Positions 2,714-62,188 of a stretch of 64,000 nucleotides of DNA are shown here, piece after piece; positions within the stretch are counted from its first letter, which is position 1, and every line of letters starts with the position of its first letter. Source of the DNA: Candidatus Spechtbacterales bacterium (GTDB lineage: Bacteria; Patescibacteriota; Minisyncoccia; Spechtbacterales; 2-12-FULL-38-22); the NCBI GenBank assembly GCA_040902285.1, contig JBBDXP010000007.1, positions 1,042 through 65,041 of the forward strand, written 5' to 3'. Under the pieces are notes generated by a model. That model was not told where the DNA came from, searched no databases, and saw only the letters and a list, made by a program, of their open reading frames with translations. A program made the position numbers and the translations under genes.

Positions 2714-4684
2714 GTGGACACAAAACAGGTAAAATCCGCAGGAATAGTCCGCATATCCCCCCATATATTAAAAAGGGGGCAATTTTGGTTTGAAAAAAAC
2801 GAAGGCAAAATAAAATCCGAGGCCAAAAAAATAACAAGCTGGTGGAACTCAAATTATAGAAGTATTCAGGTTGACGAAAAATTTCCGCTTGGCGCTATGC
2901 TAAGACAATTAGATGATTGGGGTTATATAAAAACCTCGTTTGTAAAAAGTCCCGGAGAATTCGCGTCAAGGGGCGGGATAGTTGATGTGTTTCCGGTTAA
3001 CTTAAAAAACGCTGTTCGTTTTGAATACTTTGGAGACCTGATAACATCCATCAGTGTTTTGGAAAATGTCTTAAATAAAAATCCCCAAGAAGAACTTAGG
3101 AAAATAATTTATCGTTATCCCGAATCGGCAAAGAGCGGGAAGGCGGAAAATAAAATTCCGGCCAATTTTAAAATAGGCACATTTGTGGTGCACATAGACC
3201 ACGGAATTGCGAGGTTTGCGGGTATGGAAAAAGAAGAATTGATGGTGCTTGAATACGCGAAAGGAGACCGTTTACTTGTGCCAATTTCTGTTTCTGAAAA
3301 AGTATCGCCATATTTGGGATTCGGAGAGCCCAAATTAACGCGCCTGGGCGGCAATATTTGGGAAAAAACAAAAAGAAAAGTTAAAGAAGACCTTGTAAAA
3401 ACAGCGAAACATCTGGCAAAAATATATGCCAAGAGAGAAATGACGTTGAGGCCGGCGTATAACCCGGATATTGATGTTGCCGGCATAGGCGCGGAAACCT
3501 TTGAATACATGGAAACGCCGGGGCAAATCCAGGCCATAGAAGATATAAAAAAAGATTTTTCCAGAACAAGGCCCATGGACAGGATAATCTGCGGAGATGT
3601 GGGTTTTGGAAAAACAGAAGTTGCCATAAGAGCGGCCAGCTATGCGGTGGGGGCGGGATATCAAGTCGCTATAATAACGCCTACCACTGTTTTGGCGCAT
3701 CAGCATTTTAAAACATTCCAAAAAAGATTAGAGCAATCTTCGTATCCGCTTAACGTCGAAAAATTAACCCGCATAGAAAAGCCCGCCGAACAAAAAACAA
3801 TAAAAGAAGACATAAAAAATAACAAATGTGATATTGTTATAGGAACGCACCGGCTTTTACAGAAGGACATAGAATTCAACCGCTTGGGTTTGCTTATAAT
3901 AGACGAGGAGCAGAAATTTGGCGTTAAACAGAAAGAATTTTTTAAAGAAAAAAGATCCGAACTGGATGTGCTTTCTTTATCCGCCACCCCCATTCCCCGG
4001 ACTTTGTATTTTGCGCTTAACGGCATACGCGACCTGAGCATAATTTCGACACCTCCCGTGGGAAAAAGACCAATAAAAACTTTTGTAAGGCCCAAGAGTA
4101 AAAAAATAATCAAGCAGGCAATAGAGAAAGAACTTGGGCGAAACGGACAAATTTATTATCTTCATAACCGGATAGGTTCCATGCCGCTTGCCGCGGAAAA
4201 TTTGAAGCAACTGGTACCCTCGGCTAAAATTGAATACTTGCACGCTAAAATGCCGGAGGAAAAGATTATAGAGATTATGGATAAGTTTGAAAGCGGAAAA
4301 ATTGATGTATTAATGGCAACCACTATAATGGAAAACGGATTGGATTTCCAAAACGCGAATACCCTTATAGTGGAAAACGCGACCGGCCTAGGCCTTGCAC
4401 AAGCCCACCAAATAAGAGGAAGAATAGGCCGGAAAAACAAACAGGCGTACGCGTATTTTCTGTATCCGGGAAAGAAAATGAAAGGCAAGGCGAAAAAACG
4501 TATGCTGGCGCTTGAAGAGGCCGACTACCTTGGAGCGGGGTATGAAGTAGCCATGAAAGACCTGGAAATAAGAGGAGCCGGAAATTTACTGGGCCGGGAA
4601 CAAAGCGGAAATATTGCAAAGGTTGGCTTTAATTTGTATTGCCAGATGCTTGCTGAAGCATTAGAAGAATTACGCTCTGCGTAA
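2714..4684 (+). CDS. mfd: transcription-repair coupling factor, short form lacking the N-terminal UvrB-homology module
   Basis: An RNAP-interaction-domain-like segment (FKIGTFVVHIDHGIARFAG) is present. The SF2 helicase motifs are GDVGFGKTEVAIRAA and DEEQKFG, followed by a C-terminal translocase region. At 656 aa it is far shorter than the usual ~1100-aa Mfd. Confidence 0.75.
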   Translation: MDTKQVKSAGIVRISPHILKRGQFWFEKNEGKIKSEAKKITSWWNSNYRSIQVDEKFPLGAMLRQLDDWGYIKTSFVKSPGEFASRGGIVDVFPVNLKNAVRFEYFGDLITSISVLENVLNKNPQEELRKIIYRYPESAKSGKAENKIPANFKIGTFVVHIDHGIARFAGMEKEELMVLEYAKGDRLLVPISVSEKVSPYLGFGEPKLTRLGGNIWEKTKRKVKEDLVKTAKHLAKIYAKREMTLRPAYNPDIDVAGIGAETFEYMETPGQIQAIEDIKKDFSRTRPMDRIICGDVGFGKTEVAIRAASYAVGAGYQVAIITPTTVLAHQHFKTFQKRLEQSSYPLNVEKLTRIEKPAEQKTIKEDIKNNKCDIVIGTHRLLQKDIEFNRLGLLIIDEEQKFGVKQKEFFKEKRSELDVLSLSATPIPRTLYFALNGIRDLSIISTPPVGKRPIKTFVRPKSKKIIKQAIEKELGRNGQIYYLHNRIGSMPLAAENLKQLVPSAKIEYLHAKMPEEKIIEIMDKFESGKIDVLMATTIMENGLDFQNANTLIVENATGLGLAQAHQIRGRIGRKNKQAYAYFLYPGKKMKGKAKKRMLALEEADYLGAGYEVAMKDLEIRGAGNLLGREQSGNIAKVGFNLYCQMLAEALEELRSA

Positions 4685-4699
4685 TTCTTCTAATGCTTC
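4655..4699 (+). terminator. perfect 21-bp stem-loop overlapping the mfd stop codon
   Basis: GAAGCATTAGAAGAATTACGC pairs with GCGTAATTCTTCTAATGCTTC around a TCT loop. There is no U-run directly after it, so intrinsic-terminator function is uncertain. A tandem GTAGTAAGTAG repeat and a second small hairpin with a T-rich tail follow. Confidence 0.45.
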
Positions 4700-4766
4700 A
4701 AGTGAGTAGTAAGTAGTTGGTAGTAAGTAGTAAAAATAAAAAACACCCTTTTGGGGTTTATTCTTC

Positions 4767-12743: not shown

Positions 12744-12830
12744 GCCCGGGTGGTGGAACTGGCAGACACGCTGGACTCAAAATCCAGTGGTAGAAATACC
12801 GTGGAGGTTCAACTCCTCTCCCGGGCACCA
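12744..12830 (+). tRNA. tRNA-Leu (anticodon CAA), type II with long variable arm, CCA encoded
   Basis: The acceptor stem GCCCGGG pairs with CCCGGGC. The anticodon loop is CTCAAAA and the variable arm is long. The T-arm is GGTTCAACTCC and the sequence ends ACCA. Confidence 0.85.
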
Positions 12831-22735: not shown

Positions 22736-23266
22736 CTACTGTGGACAGTGCTTGTCTACGGCGATGAACCAGCAAAGCGGGCCCCACTTGCCGGTGTGGC
22801 TTTGGGCCAGGCTAATCCTGCGTACGGCAAAGCTGTTGTAGGCGCTGACCGTATGGGGGGGCAGTACGGATCCCAGCATCACTACAGGCACCTCTGTCCT
22901 AAGTTCCGGATACGCGGCGACAAGTTCAAGATATTCATGTATCGTTCCAGGCCTAAGCCCCGTCTCATTCAGCGCGCCTCTGGCCTCGTCTGTAGAAATT
23001 TCCCGATCGAACCGCACCAGGCGTACTGACCGGCGCTGCTCCCAGGGGGAATGACAACTACAAATAGGTGCTCTCGCCATATTATAATCGTTAATCATGG
23101 GTTCAACTTCCGACAAATCGTACTCGGCCCTTGAAAGAAGTTCGGGCAAAGTTGCCAGGAAACCAATTTTTACCTGTCTCGACACGCTGTCCAGCGCGCT
23201 GATTACAGAATCTCTCACGGTGTCCTCCTGTGTAAGATTTAAAGAACAGCAGTTTACACTGCGCAT
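22736..23266 (-). CDS. hypothetical protein encoded on a GC-rich island (GC island a)
   Basis: The 176-aa ORF has no recognisable motifs. Its GC is visibly much higher than the neighbouring genes, most strongly in the 3' half. It sits between metG and tatD, which are commonly adjacent. It has its own terminator. The start codon is uncertain (MRSVN or the internal MINDYNM). Confidence 0.45.
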   Translation of the reverse strand: MRSVNCCSLNLTQEDTVRDSVISALDSVSRQVKIGFLATLPELLSRAEYDLSEVEPMINDYNMARAPICSCHSPWEQRRSVRLVRFDREISTDEARGALNETGLRPGTIHEYLELVAAYPELRTEVPVVMLGSVLPPHTVSAYNSFAVRRISLAQSHTGKWGPLCWFIAVDKHCPQ

Positions 23267-27880: not shown

Positions 27881-29242
27881 TCACAACAAGATTACTTCGT
27901 GTTCCTGCACAATGAGAACACTCCTTTGGGGAAACATCTCGGCCACCATAGAGCGGCGATTTCTCCCTGCGTGCACCGGAAGAATCTTTTGAGGATTGTT
28001 CAACTCAACGATCCTCTTGAGATCTTCTCTGTGCCCGTGTCCCGACACATGGAACATGCCGGACACAGCGCGTCCGCCTGCGTGTTCGGCGAGGCGGTGA
28101 GGCGAACCATCCGGCTCGGAAGCCAGATATATAGCGCACCCGGTTCTGGACAGTTTGTTCAACAGAGCTTCCACATCGGGCTCGTTGCCCGGAATGGTGC
28201 TTGCCGAAAATATCACCGCGTCCCTGGGGCCAAGCCGCAGAGGATGAGGCGAAATCTTTTCAAGGCGGTTCAGAACCGCGTTCGGTTCTCCCTGCGAGCC
28301 GGTAACAAATATTACCGCGTCGCGCGGCACGCTGTCATGCCAGGACTTTTTGGGATACCTTTTCAAATCAAGGCCGCTGATTCCCCTGCTACTGTGCATA
28401 TACAGGGAGCGCCCGTTGATGAAAATAGGCCTGTCCGTATGTTCCTCGACCATGCGGGAGATTTCCCACACTCTCTCAACATGCGAAGCGAACAAAGCGA
28501 CCAGAATCCTCTCGTGGTTGCTCTCGCGGATAGCGCGAGCCACCTCAAACGATGCTTCGTAGTCCGGAGGTGAAAACCCGTCCTTATCCGCACCTGTCGA
28601 ATCCAGCAAAAGGACATCCGGAGACCTGACCTCGGGCCTTTGAAGATCCGCTTCAAAGGTTTCAGTCGCGGCGATGAACCCCCGCCACTCGGAGTTCCCC
28701 CACAACTTGCAATCTCCAAGATACACAATGCGCTTGCCGCCGAGTTTAACGGCACAGCCCATGGCGCCCGGAATGGAATGTATAACCGGAAAGAAGAAGA
28801 ATTCGGCATCGCCCACGGTAAGGGTTTCGTACTCCCGGACAATTTCCAGAAAATCCTCAACTCTCTCGTGGACAGGAACCTCTTCCTTCTTCCAGCGCTC
28901 TATTGTCCTTATCACCCTTGCCGAATACTCGGAAACAAGAACTTTTGGCATGCGCTTTAGCGGGAAAGTTCTCTCATAAAACGCTCGGAATTTTCCAAGC
29001 GCTCCAATATGGTCCAAATGGGCATGGGAAATGAATATCGCCGCCACTTCTGTGGCTTTATCAATTATATGAGAAAAATCCGGCACATGTTGAGGACCGA
29101 ACTCTTCATCCCCATCGGGTATCTCCTGCCCGCAGTCAAAAATATATGCCTTTCCATTAAGAATCAAGACCTTGCAGTTCTTGCAGCCAACATCAGATTG
29201 GCCACCCAAAGATATAAACCGGACTTCGTCGGGCATTTTCAC
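27881..29242 (-). CDS. RNase J-like metallo-beta-lactamase/beta-CASP ribonuclease on a GC-rich island (GC island b)
   Basis: VRFISLGGQSDVGCKNCKVLILNGKAYIFDCGQEIPD...HVPDFSHII...AIFISHAHLDHIGALGKF matches the RNase J N-terminus. At 453 aa it lacks the RNase J C-terminal domain. GC is strongly elevated, especially in the 3' half. Confidence 0.7.
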   Translation of the reverse strand: MKMPDEVRFISLGGQSDVGCKNCKVLILNGKAYIFDCGQEIPDGDEEFGPQHVPDFSHIIDKATEVAAIFISHAHLDHIGALGKFRAFYERTFPLKRMPKVLVSEYSARVIRTIERWKKEEVPVHERVEDFLEIVREYETLTVGDAEFFFFPVIHSIPGAMGCAVKLGGKRIVYLGDCKLWGNSEWRGFIAATETFEADLQRPEVRSPDVLLLDSTGADKDGFSPPDYEASFEVARAIRESNHERILVALFASHVERVWEISRMVEEHTDRPIFINGRSLYMHSSRGISGLDLKRYPKKSWHDSVPRDAVIFVTGSQGEPNAVLNRLEKISPHPLRLGPRDAVIFSASTIPGNEPDVEALLNKLSRTGCAIYLASEPDGSPHRLAEHAGGRAVSGMFHVSGHGHREDLKRIVELNNPQKILPVHAGRNRRSMVAEMFPQRSVLIVQEHEVILL

Positions 29243-41635: not shown

Positions 41636-41986
41636 GGGAGCGGCTTACGCGGCTTCGATAAGTTCTTATTAGTATAAATTGCAGATCGAGTGCGCCTGAA
41701 TCTCGCAAAACTTCGGGCAACCCTTTAAGTGCAAACAAACAACCAGCACTTGCTTACGCATAAATTCCGTAAGCCATCGCACTAAATGATTCCTGATAGT
41801 TTAGATGCGGTGTCATTCATCAGGATAGCCAAACGCTCGTCCGCGCGTTCGGTGAAAATTAGGGCTAGGATATTACGGTGTTTTGTTTATTTTTTAGCCG
41901 TTTTATCCGAACAATAAAAATAAACTATATCTGTAGACATTTATGCCGATACGGCTTACACAGGGGTTCGAATCCCCTCGCTTCCA
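41636..41986 (+). ncRNA. ssrA: tmRNA (ssrA), ~351 nt
   Basis: The 5' GGGAGCG pairs with the 3' CGCUUCC, including a G3:U70 alanine identity pair. The T-arm is GGGGTTCGAATCCCC, then discriminator A. The internal tag ORF GCA AAC AAA CAA CCA GCA CTT GCT TAC GCA TAA encodes ANKQPALAYA* at 41731-41763. It is located immediately after smpB. Confidence 0.8.
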
Positions 41987-42014
41987 CATTAGTGTTAAAA
42001 ATTTAAGTTAAAAT

Positions 42015-60911: not shown

Positions 60912-60956
60912 CTTATACTGATTTTAACATGTGCGAATGCACATACAAAAGAAAAA

Positions 60957-60990
60957 GCCGAGCCCCGCTTAAAGCGGAACCCGGCTTTGG
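60957..60990 (-). terminator. GC-rich hairpin terminator of GC island c
   Basis: AAAGCCGAGCCCCGC-TTTAA-GCGGAACCCGGCTTT is an imperfect hairpin. On the minus strand it is followed by TTTTTCTTTTGT. Confidence 0.4.
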
Positions 60991-60998
60991 TGACAAGA

Positions 60999-61412
60999 TC
61001 ACGCACGGTAGTGCATGATCTTGTCGAGCGAGTTGAACTTCTGGTCTGACCAGTAGAACATCAGCGTCCACCGGCCGTTCGTCCAGGCCAGATACGGAAC
61101 TCGAAGCGAACCGGTCCGGTCGCGCCACAGAGTGGCGGGAAAGACCAGGTTGAACCTCTGCCGGTGTTCCGGGATCAGGTCCTGGTGATCCACAAACCAT
61201 TCGGCCGTCATCATGCCGACGTTGGCGCCGAACCATATGGCTCTCTTGCGTAGCTCCTCCAGCCAGACGTATTGCTCGTCGGGAAGAAGGAAGCCGATGG
61301 GGGTGTAGTCACCAAAGCGGTGATCCGGACCTTCCTGAACAAGTTCCCAGCCCTTTTCGATGTAGATTTCGTCCGGGGCCAGGTCCTTATGTTCCGACAC
61401 TATGCGTGCCAT
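60999..61412 (-). CDS. hypothetical protein on GC-rich island c (138 aa from MARIVSEHK)
   Basis: GC is strongly elevated. An AGGAAGGAG RBS lies 7 nt upstream of the ATG at 61412. No known motif; the protein is Trp-rich (WELVQEGPDHRFGDY...WTNGRWTLMFYW). Confidence 0.45.
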   Translation of the reverse strand: MARIVSEHKDLAPDEIYIEKGWELVQEGPDHRFGDYTPIGFLLPDEQYVWLEELRKRAIWFGANVGMMTAEWFVDHQDLIPEHRQRFNLVFPATLWRDRTGSLRVPYLAWTNGRWTLMFYWSDQKFNSLDKIMHYRA

Positions 61413-61480
61413 GGCAAACTCCTTCCTCAGAAATTGCAAAGTGCAATGCAGATTCTTTGTCTGCAATGTCTATATTATAT
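61413..61480 (-). promoter_or_regulatory. promoter (-10 TATAAT) plus two palindromic operator-like sites in the 5' UTR of the island c gene
   Basis: Minus-strand sequence is TTTATGATATAATATAGACATTGCAGACAAAGAATCTGCATTGCACTTTGCAATTTCTGAGGAAGGAG. The palindromes are TGCAGA-N7-TCTGCA and ATTGCA-N3-TGCAAT. Confidence 0.35.
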
Positions 61481-61525
61481 CATAAATAAAAATAAAAAAC
61501 AAGGTTTTAGCTTGCTTTTTGGGGA

Positions 61526-61669
61526 GATACGCGCAGTATTGTTTTTAACGACCGCGGTTCTGTTTTTCCTGCGAAAACAGACCGCTCCCTCTCGGCATTT
61601 TCGCCTCGCTACACTCGGACCAAGCCGAAAATGCCTCCGAGAATCGTTAAAAACAATACCGCGCGTATC
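61526..61669. repeat. 144-nt highly structured imperfect inverted repeat (candidate ncRNA or MITE-like element) directly downstream of the zinc-ribbon gene
   Basis: GATACGCGCAGTATTGTTTTTAACGA ... TCGTTAAAAACAATACCGCGCGTATC is a 26-bp stem with one mismatch. Inner arms are CTCGGCATTTTCG/CGAAAATGCCTCCGAG. A nested hairpin CTGTTTT-TCCTGCG-AAAACAG is also present. Confidence 0.45.
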
Positions 61670-61675
61670 CCTTTA

Positions 61676-62188
61676 CTACTTGGGCCACCAAACACGCACC
61701 CGTGCCGTATCCTCCCCTTTCGAAAATTGTATATCCACCTCAGCACCCTTGTGTGCTTTTTCTATTTCTTTACCAATGGCCATTGCAAGCTGGTTCTCCG
61801 ATGTTTTTATTTCAATTTTGTCGCCCAAATAATGAAAATCCAATATCCTGTCCAAAACATCTCTTTGGTGGGCGCGCTCGGCTATGTTGTTGACTTGATT
61901 CAGCACCTCTTTGCCAAGTCCCACTGGTATGTTTTCGATTATTACTTGCCCCTCAAATAATCCTTTCTTTTTCATATCATCCGCCGGACAAAGAACAAAT
62001 TTTATTCGCTTATCCGGATTTGCGCGCCGATATTCTTCCAAACCGTGGTGCCAGCTTTTTTCAAAATACACGGCGTTGCACTCCGGACATATTAAAATAT
62101 CCTGTTTGCCCGGGCCGAATTCCTGCTCTTCCTTTTTGGGGCGAGGAAATTCTCCGTGAAACGGTTGTGATGGTATTTTGTCTGTCAT
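61676..62188 (-). CDS. hypothetical protein with an N-terminal CxxC...C zinc-ribbon-like motif
   Basis: ICPECNAVYFEKSWHH...FVLCPADD. 170 aa with no confident family. Confidence 0.4.
   Translation of the reverse strand: MTDKIPSQPFHGEFPRPKKEEQEFGPGKQDILICPECNAVYFEKSWHHGLEEYRRANPDKRIKFVLCPADDMKKKGLFEGQVIIENIPVGLGKEVLNQVNNIAERAHQRDVLDRILDFHYLGDKIEIKTSENQLAMAIGKEIEKAHKGAEVDIQFSKGEDTARVRVWWPK

What the first reader, a model, noticed from the sequence alone, without database searches (positions are those of the whole stretch)
60940..61675. GC-rich island c: self-contained cassette (structured IR - promoter - palindromic operators - Trp-rich ORF - terminator)
Reading the minus strand, the cassette has five parts in order. 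First a 144-nt structured inverted repeat. Then a TATAAT -10 box. Then two short palindromes (TGCAGA-N7-TCTGCA and ATTGCA-N3-TGCAAT) between the promoter and a strong AGGAAGGAG RBS. Then a 138-aa GC-rich ORF of unknown function. Then a GC-rich hairpin terminator. The palindromes look like operator sites for a dimeric regulator, possibly autoregulation or a trans factor encoded elsewhere. The whole ~730-bp unit is compositionally distinct from its flanks and looks like an acquired regulated cassette.
Basis: seen in the sequence. Interest (0 to 1): 0.6.

Follow-up and report, generated by a model that had tools for sequence, protein, structure and literature searches.

The report
Orphan retroelement-target lectin gene, frozen
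The GC-rich "cassette" is a stand-alone gene for a small lectin-fold protein from the family that Patescibacteria (CPR) bacteria normally hypermutate with diversity-generating retroelements, but this copy has no reverse transcriptase or template nearby and its once-variable binding surface is fixed.

Summary
All five listed parts are in the sequence. The 137-aa ORF (60999-61412, minus strand) is a real gene: dN/dS is 0.16 against a syntenic Candidatus Spechtbacteria ortholog. It belongs to a large Pfam-less family of Patescibacteria (CPR) proteins (744 cluster representatives). In 7 of 30 homologous genome loci, the last ~112-132 nt of the ORF has an 80-87% identical copy downstream. Of 152 mismatches, 135 sit at adenines of that copy, and in 6 loci an RT gene with YADD/LGNLTSQ motifs follows. 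The family is therefore the variable protein of CPR diversity-generating retroelements (DGRs).

The window copy has no template repeat and no RT in 64 kb plus 7 kb. All 11 positions that templates encode as Asn are identical between the two orthologs, while 13 of 36 other positions differ. The former variable region is frozen.

GC-richness lies in third codon positions (GC3 0.75 against a window median of 0.42). It is a family trait (29 of 30 loci; the RT genes are host-like), not a sign of recent acquisition.

Palindrome 1 is a conserved 5'-UTR hairpin with one compensatory change. Palindrome 2 is not conserved. The 144-nt inverted repeat (IR) is highly structured but lineage-specific, so it is not part of the conserved unit, and its nature is unresolved.

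Verdict: new member of a known kind, moderate interest.

The parts
60999..61412 (-). ORF of 137 aa (ATG at 61412, TGA ending at 60999). It is a domain-only member of the CPR DGR variable-protein family, with a C-type-lectin-like fold.
61002..61133 (-). Former variable region (codons 94-137), homologous to the VR of DGR-linked family members. It is now fixed.
   Evidence: Alignment with VRs and TR-encoded peptides. The window and its ortholog differ at 0 of 11 template-Asn positions but at 13 of 36 other positions. Other family pairs differ at 8-9 of 11. No TR-like copy was found in the window or in L011.
61474..61502 (-). Promoter: -35 TTGTTT (61497-61502), a 17-nt spacer, and an extended -10 TGaTATAAT (61474-61482).
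   Evidence: Read from the sequence. The block CCTTGTTTTTTATTTkTATTTATGATATAATAT is nearly invariant in the window, L002, L055 and L056, although dS is 1.4.
61447..61465 (-). Palindrome 1: a 5'-proximal stem-loop of the predicted mRNA (GCAGA / TCTGC stem).
   Evidence: It is conserved as GCAGAT/ATCTGC in L055 and as GTAGAT/ATCTAC in L002/L056, which is one compensatory pair. Hairpins occur at the same place in nearly all family 5' UTRs.
61433..61447 (-). Palindrome 2 (ATTGCA-N3-TGCAAT).
   Evidence: Only a 4-bp TTGY/RCAA pairing is kept in the orthologs. The minimum-free-energy fold of the window UTR instead pairs GCAA...TTGC across the SD. Not supported as a conserved element.
61419..61427 (-). 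Shine-Dalgarno sequence AGGAAGGAG, 6 nt before the ATG.
   Evidence: An AAGGAG-type SD is found in nearly all family members.
60992..61025 (-). 15-bp hairpin with a 4-nt loop spanning the stop codon.
   Evidence: Only a 7-bp core is kept in L002. It may be a relic of the inverted repeat that follows DGR variable regions; that is inference.
60944..60988 (-). Intrinsic terminator: a 16-pair hairpin followed by a T-run.
   Evidence: L002 has a hairpin of different sequence followed by a T-run at the same place.
61494..61514 (-). Small hairpin CAAG-N7-CTTG followed by a T-run. It is the likely terminator of the upstream 170-aa gene and overlaps the -35.
   Evidence: It is conserved and has a longer stem in relatives: CAAGGA...TCCTTG in L002 and CAAGG...CCTTG in L055.
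61524..61671 (-). 144-148-nt structured inverted repeat forming a three-way junction. It is a lineage-specific insertion between the stop codon of the upstream gene and that gene's terminator. It is not a conserved part of the unit.
   Evidence: The gene-sense (minus) strand folds at -86.8 kcal/mol (z -11.2); the plus strand folds at -73.0. It is absent from L002/L056. L055 carries a ~240-nt insert whose first ~30 nt match one arm in inverted orientation. No Rfam match. No other copy was found anywhere.

Best explanation
The ORF encodes a small, probably cytoplasmic ligand-binding protein with a C-type-lectin-like fold. It is a vertically inherited member of the protein family that CPR/Patescibacteria diversify with diversity-generating retroelements (DGRs). 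In DGR-linked relatives, an error-prone reverse transcriptase (RT) copies a template repeat (TR) and rewrites the last ~125 nt of the gene (the variable region, VR) at positions that are adenines in the template. The window copy lacks the usual ~60-aa N-terminal extension. No TR or RT is within reach, and its former VR is fixed and under purifying selection. It now most likely acts as a fixed-specificity binding protein, a retired or domesticated DGR target.

The gene is expressed as its own monocistronic unit, with these parts in order:
- an extended -10 promoter;
- a short stem-loop close to the 5' end of the mRNA (mRNA stabilisation or translational tuning; inferred);
- a strong SD;
- the ORF;
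- a stop-spanning hairpin;
- an intrinsic terminator.

The high GC content lies in third codon positions. It is a trait of the target-gene family that has persisted through more than one synonymous substitution per site, so it is maintained rather than imported.

The 144-nt IR upstream is a separate, lineage-specific structured insertion in the 3' region of the preceding gene. It is probably a MITE-like (miniature inverted-repeat element) palindromic element, or a structured 3'-UTR RNA read on the gene strand.

Shown: family membership, DGR linkage of homologs, absence of TR/RT in the window, fixation of the VR, purifying selection, synteny, the GC3 pattern, and non-conservation of the IR. Inferred: ligand binding, cytoplasmic location, the role of the 5' hairpin, and the nature of the IR.
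For: Family and fold:
- The exhaustive profile search gave 744 representatives at E <= 1e-3 and 232 at E <= 1e-10. There is no Pfam family and no PDB sequence match.
- Almost all named or titled hits are CPR lineages; three loci come from one MAG labelled Gammaproteobacteria.
- The AF2 model on 83 sequences has pLDDT 89.3 and pTM 0.83.

DGR linkage of homologs:
- 7 of 30 genome loci have a VR/TR pair of 112-132 nt at 80-87% identity.
- 135 of 152 mismatches are at TR adenines.
- 6 loci have an RT ORF with YADD and LGNLTSQ motifs.
- The RT-less paralogs L021 and L028 match the TR of L024 in the same MAG, with 19/21 and 19/20 mismatches at A.

The window copy:
- No similar DNA elsewhere in the window or the extra contig end.
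- No RT by motif scan or by tblastn with six DGR RTs.
- Only one family member in the window.

Fixation:
- The residues TSRATMYQNLD at the 11 template-Asn columns are identical in the window and the Spechtbacteria ortholog. 13 of 36 other columns differ (Fisher p = 0.02).
- Five other family pairs compared differ at 8-9 of 11 columns; one of them is a pair of targets of the same template repeat.
- Close variants of the ortholog vary no more in the VR than elsewhere.
- dN/dS is 0.16 overall and 0.21 in the VR part; dS is 1.41.

Synteny and composition:
- Synteny and neighbour identities of 62-89%.
- GC3 is 0.75 in the window and 0.66 in L002, against about 0.42 in neighbours. This is the top of 58 window genes.
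- Family mean GC3 is 0.70, against 0.47 for neighbours and 0.42 for RT genes. The target gene is higher in 29 of 30 loci.

Regulatory parts.

Published description of CPR DGR targets as lacking TM or other known domains, and of remote targets: PMC8144416 and PMC5758913.
Against: - Only 64 kb plus 7 kb of the genome could be examined. A DGR elsewhere in the genome cannot be excluded, and RT-less family members can be genuine remote targets.
- The persistent high GC3 is unexplained. It might mean the gene is still exposed to whatever process shapes active targets; one divergent RT-less member (L051) has host-like GC3.
- No ligand, localisation or expression data exist.
- The MITE reading of the IR lacks its key support: no second copy was found and no clear target-site duplication is visible.
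Confidence: 0.72

Rival explanations
1. The gene is still an active remote target. A DGR elsewhere in this genome supplies mutagenised cDNA that rewrites codons 96-137, and the stop-spanning hairpin serves as the target-recognition inverted repeat.
For: - RT-less paralogs in another MAG are clearly written from a distant TR.
- Remote targets are documented (PMC5758913; PMC8144416).
- The gene keeps the family's high GC3.
- A 15-bp hairpin with a 4-nt loop sits at the end of the VR-equivalent.
Against: - 0 of 11 canonical variable positions differ between orthologs separated by dS 1.4, against 8-9 of 11 in the other family pairs compared.
- Close variants show no excess variation in the VR.
- Scaffold residues that templates keep invariant have changed: W to F, WL to WS/WA, and RLV to K/R-I-M.
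- Met and Gln codons at template-Asn positions cannot arise from AAC by adenine changes alone.
- The 3' flank lacks the CGCAAG-TAG-CGG... sequence shared by many family members, including DGR-linked ones.
- No TR or RT in 71 kb.
Confidence: 0.13
2. One reading: a recently acquired, regulated cassette whose two palindromes are operators for a dimeric repressor, with the IR as part of the mobile unit.
For: - The ORF is the strongest compositional outlier of the window.
- The unit has its own promoter and terminator.
- Palindrome 1 is conserved and lies just downstream of the -10, where repressors often bind.
- Family members occur in unrelated contexts, for example between mraY and murD in L012, so the unit has moved or duplicated in the past.
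Against: - The gene is syntenic and has diverged as much as its neighbours in Spechtbacteria relatives.
- The GC3 bias is family-wide and has survived saturated synonymous change.
- The IR is missing from, or replaced in, the orthologous loci.
- Palindrome 2 is not conserved.
- The change in palindrome 1 is compensatory. Other family members carry hairpins of unrelated sequence at the same position, which argues for RNA structure rather than a shared operator.
- No regulator gene is adjacent.
Confidence: 0.08
3. The 144-nt IR is a functional structured RNA, such as a 3'-UTR stabiliser, an insulator or terminator for the upstream gene, or a small RNA, rather than a transposon relic.
For: - The fold is extremely stable (z -11.2).
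- The gene-sense strand is 13.8 kcal/mol more stable than the antisense strand, because the imperfect positions are G-U pairs on that strand.
- The arms are nearly perfect (27 of 28 pairs), which suggests either maintenance or youth.
- It lies exactly between a stop codon and a conserved terminator.
Against: - It is not conserved in the orthologous loci. L055 has a weakly structured insert (z -1.8), and L002/L056 have about 28 nt.
- No Rfam family matches.
- No homolog in the collections scanned.
Confidence: 0.3

Closest known systems
Variable (target) proteins of CPR/Patescibacteria diversity-generating retroelements: 'DGR clade 2' of Roux et al. 2021 (PMC8144416), and the CPR set with ungrouped or 'UVR' variable-region classes of Wu et al. 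2018 (PMC5758913)
   Same: - Sequence homology: E about 1e-20 to 1e-28 to family members, and tblastn 1e-22 to the DGR-linked locus L016.
- A small protein with no TM segment or known domain.
- The conserved C-terminal module ends the ORF.
- Own promoter, strong SD and high GC3.
   Different: - No cognate TR or RT within 71 kb.
- The canonical variable positions are fixed across species.
- Several scaffold residues are replaced.
- It lacks the ~60-aa N-terminal extension.
- It lacks the 3' flank shared by many family members, including DGR-linked ones.
Structurally solved DGR variable proteins: Mtd of Bordetella phage BPP-1 (1yu0) and TvpA of Treponema denticola (2y3c)
   Different: - No detectable sequence similarity.
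- Much smaller (137 aa).
- No FGE-sulfatase-type Pfam signature.
- Structural similarity is weak by Foldseek.
Remote (non-adjacent) DGR targets, for example those of Treponema and of Lineage 4 DGRs (PMC5758913)
   Same: A target-family gene located far from any RT. This was shown here for L021 and L028 relative to L024.
   Different: Remote targets keep adenine-specific differences to a TR and vary between strains. This gene shows neither within the data available.
Miniature inverted-repeat elements and other palindromic intergenic repeats (for the IR only; from general knowledge)
   Same: - 26-28-bp terminal inverted repeats.
- About 150 nt, non-coding and intergenic.
- Presence/absence polymorphism between related genomes, and a related arm in inverted orientation in L055.
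   Different: - Single copy in all the data searched.
- No clear target-site duplication.
- The interior folds into two independent hairpins rather than one long stem.
5'-terminal stem-loops that stabilise bacterial mRNAs, such as ompA, ermC and aprE leaders (from general knowledge)
   Same: A short hairpin within a few nucleotides of the predicted 5' end, followed by an unpaired SD region.
   Different: The transcription start is only predicted. No decay data exist. The hairpin has only 5-6 bp.

Membership tests
DGR variable-protein (target) family of CPR bacteria | Sequence homology to proteins whose C-terminal region is demonstrably a VR | tested here: met
   A profile built from the window protein plus its ortholog finds the family at E down to 1e-28. 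tblastn finds 30 genome loci. Seven of these have VR/TR pairs, and six have an RT.
DGR variable-protein (target) family of CPR bacteria | C-type-lectin-type fold carrying the variable residues | tested here: met
Active DGR target (functional membership of a DGR system) | A cognate template repeat with adenine-specific mismatches to the VR | tested here: not met
   No similar DNA in the 64-kb window or in the 7 kb of extra contig. Alignments to seven TRs of other genomes are weak and not adenine-biased: 9 mismatches at A against 15 at other bases. The rest of the genome could not be tested.
Active DGR target (functional membership of a DGR system) | A DGR-type reverse transcriptase in the genome | tested here: not met
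   No ORF with the YxDD plus [ILVM]GxxxSQ motifs, and no tblastn hit with six DGR RTs, in the window, L011, L001 or L002. This could not be tested genome-wide with these tools.
Active DGR target (functional membership of a DGR system) | Hypervariability confined to template-adenine codons between strains or orthologs | tested here: not met
   0 of 11 differences at template-Asn columns, against 13 of 36 elsewhere. Other family pairs differ at 8-9 of 11. Close variants show no VR enrichment.
Active DGR target (functional membership of a DGR system) | An IMH sequence at the 3' end of the VR, followed by an inverted repeat | tested here: inconclusive
   A 15-bp hairpin with a 4-nt loop spans the stop codon. 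An IMH cannot be defined without a TR. The 3' flank shared by many family members, including DGR-linked ones, is absent.
Operator-controlled (repressor-regulated) promoter | Palindromic sites conserved in orthologous loci | tested here: inconclusive
   Palindrome 1 is kept, but through a compensatory pair change. Palindrome 2 is reduced to 4 bp in the orthologs. No regulator gene is adjacent. Protein binding is not testable here.
MITE / palindromic mobile element (IR only) | Terminal inverted repeats | tested here: met
   26-nt arms at 96% complementarity, extending to 28 pairs.
MITE / palindromic mobile element (IR only) | Multiple copies in the genome or in related genomes | tested here: not met
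   No second copy in the window or the contig. No hits to a 23-mer of the arm in the genome or metagenome collections. The viral hits and the metagenome core hit are chance matches. The only relative is one arm-like stretch at the same site in L055.
MITE / palindromic mobile element (IR only) | Target-site duplication and a clean empty site in a relative | tested here: inconclusive
   A possible AAAG on both sides. The orthologous 'empty' site in L002/L056 holds about 28 unrelated bases, so the junctions are not clean.
Known RNA families (Rfam 15) | A match at or near the gathering score for the IR or the 5' UTR | tested here: not met
   The window has only a tmRNA and a tRNA at gathering score. 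The region has nothing meaningful at E <= 10. Twenty family loci gave only one tRNA.

The most novel reading that the evidence does not exclude
CPR DGR target genes are under nucleotide-level selection that keeps third codon positions G/C-rich along the whole gene. Mean GC3 is 0.70, against 0.47 for neighbouring genes and 0.42 for the adjacent RT genes. This signature outlives the retroelement: in the window lineage a retired target has kept GC3 at 0.66-0.75 through more than one synonymous substitution per site, while its former hypervariable surface became the most conserved part of the protein. If true, high GC3 together with the conserved structured leader would mark a requirement of DGR targets at the DNA or RNA level that has not been described. 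Possible requirements are target recognition, protection from off-target adenine mutagenesis, or mRNA stability. The window gene would then be a clear case of a DGR variable protein domesticated into a fixed-specificity receptor.
Probability: 0.25. Interest if true: 0.6.

Novelty: new member of a known kind. Interest (0 to 1): 0.4.

Why it matters
- It gives a family identity to a gene that NCBI records annotate only as 'hypothetical protein', and to about 740 clusters of unannotated CPR proteins that have no Pfam model. They are DGR variable proteins or their descendants.
- It shows that a GC-rich island in an AT-rich CPR genome need not mean recent horizontal transfer.
- It gives a concrete, testable example of a DGR target after the retroelement stops writing it: the binding surface is frozen and conserved.
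- Two family-wide regularities could help find remote or orphan DGR targets that RT-centred surveys miss. These are high GC3 restricted to the target gene, and a promoter followed by a structured leader and a strong SD. Both may point to unknown requirements of the mechanism.

Tried and rejected
- Rfam, on the whole window and permissively on the region: no family for the IR or the UTR.
- Pfam on the ORF and on 50 family members: nothing.
- PDB by sequence profile: only spurious repeat-protein hits.
- Integron attC reading of the IR: considered from memory and rejected. The arms do not fit the RYYYAAC/GTTRRRY cores, no integrase is nearby, and the IR is independent of the ORF in the orthologs.
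- Hammerhead or other small ribozyme: the junction strands (U, GGA, GG) lack the conserved cores, and Rfam is silent.
- Retron ncRNA or DGR TR-spacer RNA: no RT is adjacent.
- Exact-pattern scans for the IR arm: genome and metagenome collections gave 0 hits. Viral contigs gave 3 + 2 hits that share only the seed and are chance. Hairpin 2 gave 0 hits.
- The core shared with L055: one chance hit inside a coding region of an unrelated GC-rich contig.
- The first structure prediction, with 2 sequences, was unusable (pLDDT 53).
- Look-up of the NCBI MAG protein P0228: not on record.
- Paul et al. 2017 could not be read.
- Adenine avoidance as the cause of GC-richness: rejected, because T is as depleted as A at third positions (0.13 and 0.12).
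- Expression-linked codon bias: not supported by one ribosomal-protein comparison, L19 GC3 0.40 against 0.84 for the family member in L053.
Full report
**1. What is in the sequence**

On the minus strand the region reads as follows:
- The stop codon of a 170-aa zinc-ribbon-like gene ends at 61676.
- A 144-148-nt inverted repeat (IR) follows at 61524-61671.
- A small hairpin with a T-run lies at 61494-61514.
- The promoter has a weak -35, TTGTTT (61497-61502), and an extended -10, TGaTATAAT (61474-61482).
- Two short palindromes lie at 61447-61465 and 61433-61447.
- A strong Shine-Dalgarno (SD) sequence, AGGAAGGAG, lies at 61419-61427.
- The ORF has 137 codons (61412 to 60999).
- A 15-bp hairpin spans the stop codon (60992-61025).
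- A 16-pair terminator hairpin with a T-run lies at 60954-60988.

As RNA the IR folds into a three-way junction at -86.8 kcal/mol, z = -11.2. It is the only repeat of this kind in the window. The ORF is 57-60% G+C in a ~41% G+C background. The protein has 8 Trp in 137 residues. The observation therefore stands, with two corrections. Only the ORF is GC-rich. Six-bp palindromes are not unusual on their own (51 inverted pairs in 851 nt).

**2. The ORF is a real, vertically inherited gene**

The word-index search found only the protein itself and a 69%-identical protein of Candidatus Spechtbacteria. That ortholog lies in exactly the same gene order: MgtC, Trp/Tyr-type permease, 173-aa gene, ORF, Wzy_C, LPG-synthase.

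Neighbour proteins are 62-89% identical between the two genomes, and the ORF is 69% identical. Nei-Gojobori counts give dS = 1.41, dN = 0.23 and dN/dS = 0.16. An NCBI MAG protein from Candidatus Spechtbacterales has the same sequence with an upstream TTG start, which places the window in that CPR lineage.

**3. The family**

An exhaustive profile search found 744 cluster representatives at E <= 1e-3 and 232 at E <= 1e-10. None has a Pfam domain, and no solved structure matches by sequence. Almost all named or titled hits are Patescibacteria/CPR; three loci come from one MAG labelled Gammaproteobacteria.

Typical members are 175-195 aa: a variable ~60-aa N-terminus followed by a conserved ~115-aa module that ends the protein. 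The window protein is the module alone. Some MAGs have several copies.

**4. The decisive evidence is genetic**

Thirty homologous loci were fetched from CPR genomes.
- In seven of them, the last 112-132 nt of the ORF has an 80-87% identical copy 290-420 nt downstream.
- Of 152 mismatches, 135 lie at adenines of the downstream copy. The others cluster at the 3' boundary.
- In six loci an ORF with the DGR reverse-transcriptase (RT) signatures YADD and LGNLTSQ follows.

These are canonical variable-repeat (VR) / template-repeat (TR) / RT arrangements. In one MAG, two RT-less paralogs on other contigs (L021, L028) match the template of the third locus (L024), with 19 of 21 and 19 of 20 mismatches at adenines. 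Family members without a neighbouring RT can therefore be real remote targets.

This matches published descriptions. CPR DGRs form their own clade, and their targets lack transmembrane or other known domains. RT-centred surveys miss remote targets (PMC8144416). Wu et al. list 126 CPR DGRs with mostly ungrouped variable regions (PMC5758913).

**5. Status of the window copy**

- No other stretch of the window, or of the extra 7 kb of its contig, resembles the ORF.
- No RT is detectable by motif or by tblastn with six DGR RTs.
- The family profile hits only this ORF in the window.
- The VR was aligned with the peptides encoded by seven templates, which defines 11 columns that templates encode as Asn (AAC), the classical hypervariable codon.
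  - At those columns the window and the Spechtbacteria ortholog have identical residues (TSRATMYQNLD). They differ at 13 of the other 36 columns (Fisher p = 0.02).
  - Five other family pairs compared differ at 8-9 of the 11 columns; one of them is a pair of targets of the same template repeat.
- Variants within 90% identity of the ortholog vary no more in this segment than elsewhere.
- Residues that templates hold constant have changed: W to F, WL to WS/WA, and RLV to K/R-I-M.
- Some codons at former Asn positions (ATG, CAG) cannot derive from AAC by adenine changes alone.

The simplest reading is a retired target whose former variable surface is now the best-conserved part of the segment. 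An active DGR elsewhere in the genome cannot be excluded with 71 kb of sequence. I give that about 13%.

**6. Composition**

The G+C excess lies in third codon positions: GC3 is 0.75 in the window gene and 0.66 in the ortholog, against 0.40-0.46 in their neighbours. The ORF ranks first of 58 window genes, whose median GC3 is 0.42. A and T are equally depleted at third positions.

Across the 30 loci that have neighbouring ORFs to compare with (the window, L002, L012 and 27 of the fetched genome loci), the target gene exceeds its neighbours in 29. Mean GC3 is 0.70 for target genes, 0.47 for neighbours and 0.42 for the adjacent RT genes.

A ribosomal protein gene next to one member has GC3 0.40, against 0.84 for the member. 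One divergent RT-less member has host-like GC3.

The signature has survived dS > 1 in two lineages, so it is maintained and not a mark of recent import. Its cause is unexplained.

**7. Regulatory parts**

The block from the small hairpin through the -10 is almost invariant in the window and three Spechtbacteria loci, despite saturated synonymous change. This argues that it is functional as the terminator of the upstream gene plus the promoter.

Palindrome 1 is kept as GCAGA/TCTGC, GCAGAT/ATCTGC and GTAGAT/ATCTAC, which is one compensatory pair. Palindrome 2 shrinks to four pairs in the orthologs.

Nearly every family member has a TTGACA/TATAAT-type promoter, then a 60-125-nt leader with at least one strong hairpin of subgroup-specific sequence, then a CA-rich linker and an AAGGAG SD. 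A hairpin of changing sequence at a constant place fits an RNA element better than a shared operator. It may stabilise the 5' end or tune translation. Protein binding was not testable.

**8. The IR**

- It is absent from the L002/L056 orthologous loci, which have about 28 nt at that place.
- A third genome (L055) has a ~240-nt, weakly structured insert there (z -1.8).
- The first ~30 nt of that insert match one IR arm plus adjacent bases in inverted orientation. The local score is 27, against 10.9 +/- 1.6 in shuffles, with 0 of 300 shuffles reaching it.
- The spot is therefore an indel hot spot, and the IR is not part of the conserved unit.
- The gene-sense strand folds 13.8 kcal/mol better than the antisense strand, because of G-U pairs.
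- No Rfam family matches, and no further copy was found.
- A MITE-like element and a lineage-specific structured 3'-UTR RNA remain about equally open.

**9. Verdict**

The finding is real, but the interpretation changes. It is neither an acquired operator-controlled cassette nor a gene of unknown function. It is an orphan, fixed member of the CPR DGR variable-protein family with its own expression signals, next to an unrelated structured insertion.

It is a new member of a known kind. The persistent GC3 signature and the conserved leader architecture of DGR target genes are the most interesting leads.

Noticed in passing
L016-L045 (30 CPR genome loci), L012, L053; window 60999-61412: Genes of the DGR target family have much higher GC3 than their neighbours (mean 0.70 against 0.47, higher in 29 of 30 loci). 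The adjacent DGR RT genes are host-like (0.42). The excess covers the N-terminal, core and VR parts alike. One divergent RT-less member (L051) is host-like.
   Followed up: partly
5' UTRs of L012, L016, L021-L026, L028, L034, L036, L037, L040, L041, L043, L044: DGR target genes share leader motifs by subgroup:
- a GNRA-capped hairpin, ATCGAGGGTC-GCGA-GATCCCGAT (L021, L024, L037, L040);
- ATTGCAGC...GCTGCAAT hairpins (L022, L023, L036);
- ATAGTACCYT just after the promoter (L022, L023, L034, L044);
- GTTCTTTAC near the 5' end, which can pair with the AAAGGAG SD (L012, L016, L041, L043);
- a CCACAACCAA linker before the SD.

No Rfam family matches.
   Followed up: partly
3' flanks of L022, L023, L025, L026, L036 (and L012/L016 as a second type): The sequence just after the stop codon is conserved between different genomes (CGCAAG-TAG-CGG..CCTAGGACTCTTGGTTCTTGGATCCCTTGG) and is followed by a strong terminator. 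It may be the extended target-recognition region of these DGRs. The window gene lacks it.
   Followed up: no
window 61494-61676; L002 4864-4960; L055 1147-1400; L056 1364-1400: The short space between the stop codon of the 170/173-aa gene and its conserved terminator exists in three states in related genomes: about 28 nt, a ~240-nt weakly structured insert with 14-17-nt terminal inverted repeats, and the 144-nt IR.
   Followed up: partly
L012 5626-6904: A family member with its own promoter sits between mraY and murD inside the cell-wall gene cluster. It is flanked by large intergenic gaps that hold repeated hairpins of the type TGTCATCCCCCCGA...TCGGGGGGATGACA.
   Followed up: no
L020 1993-2383, 2758-3300, 3667-4120: The family gene appears as tandem copies in one 'Saccharibacteria' MAG contig. 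One copy is 85% identical over 458 nt, and a more diverged copy lies upstream.
   Followed up: no
window 61047-61049 (codon 122): Residue 122 is a scaffold Leu in the family (WL). It is the most variable site among the window protein and the Spechtbacteria variants (S, A, A, G, T), although the former hypervariable positions are fixed.
   Followed up: no
window 27881-29242 (-): A 451-453-aa metallo-beta-lactamase/RNase J-like ORF is the second most GC3-rich gene of the window (GC 0.53, GC3 0.59).
   Followed up: no
window 22736-23266 (-): A 176-aa ORF with raised GC (0.53) and GC3 (0.58), third in the window. It is not a member of the DGR target family by profile search.
   Followed up: no
window 41636-41989 (+) and 12744-12830 (+): A tmRNA (tag peptide ANKQPALAYA) and a tRNA-Leu(CAA). 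These are the only Rfam or ARAGORN hits in the window.
   Followed up: yes
window 4654-4700: A perfect 22-bp inverted repeat with a 3-nt spacer (TGAAGCATTAGAAGAATTACGC / GCGTAATTCTTCTAATGCTTCA). It is the longest perfect hairpin in the window.
   Followed up: no
L015 6001-6954 and 12923-12954: A 317-aa family member with an N-terminal signal-peptide-like segment and an extra domain lies in a region of small unannotated ORFs near an rve-type integrase fragment.
   Followed up: no
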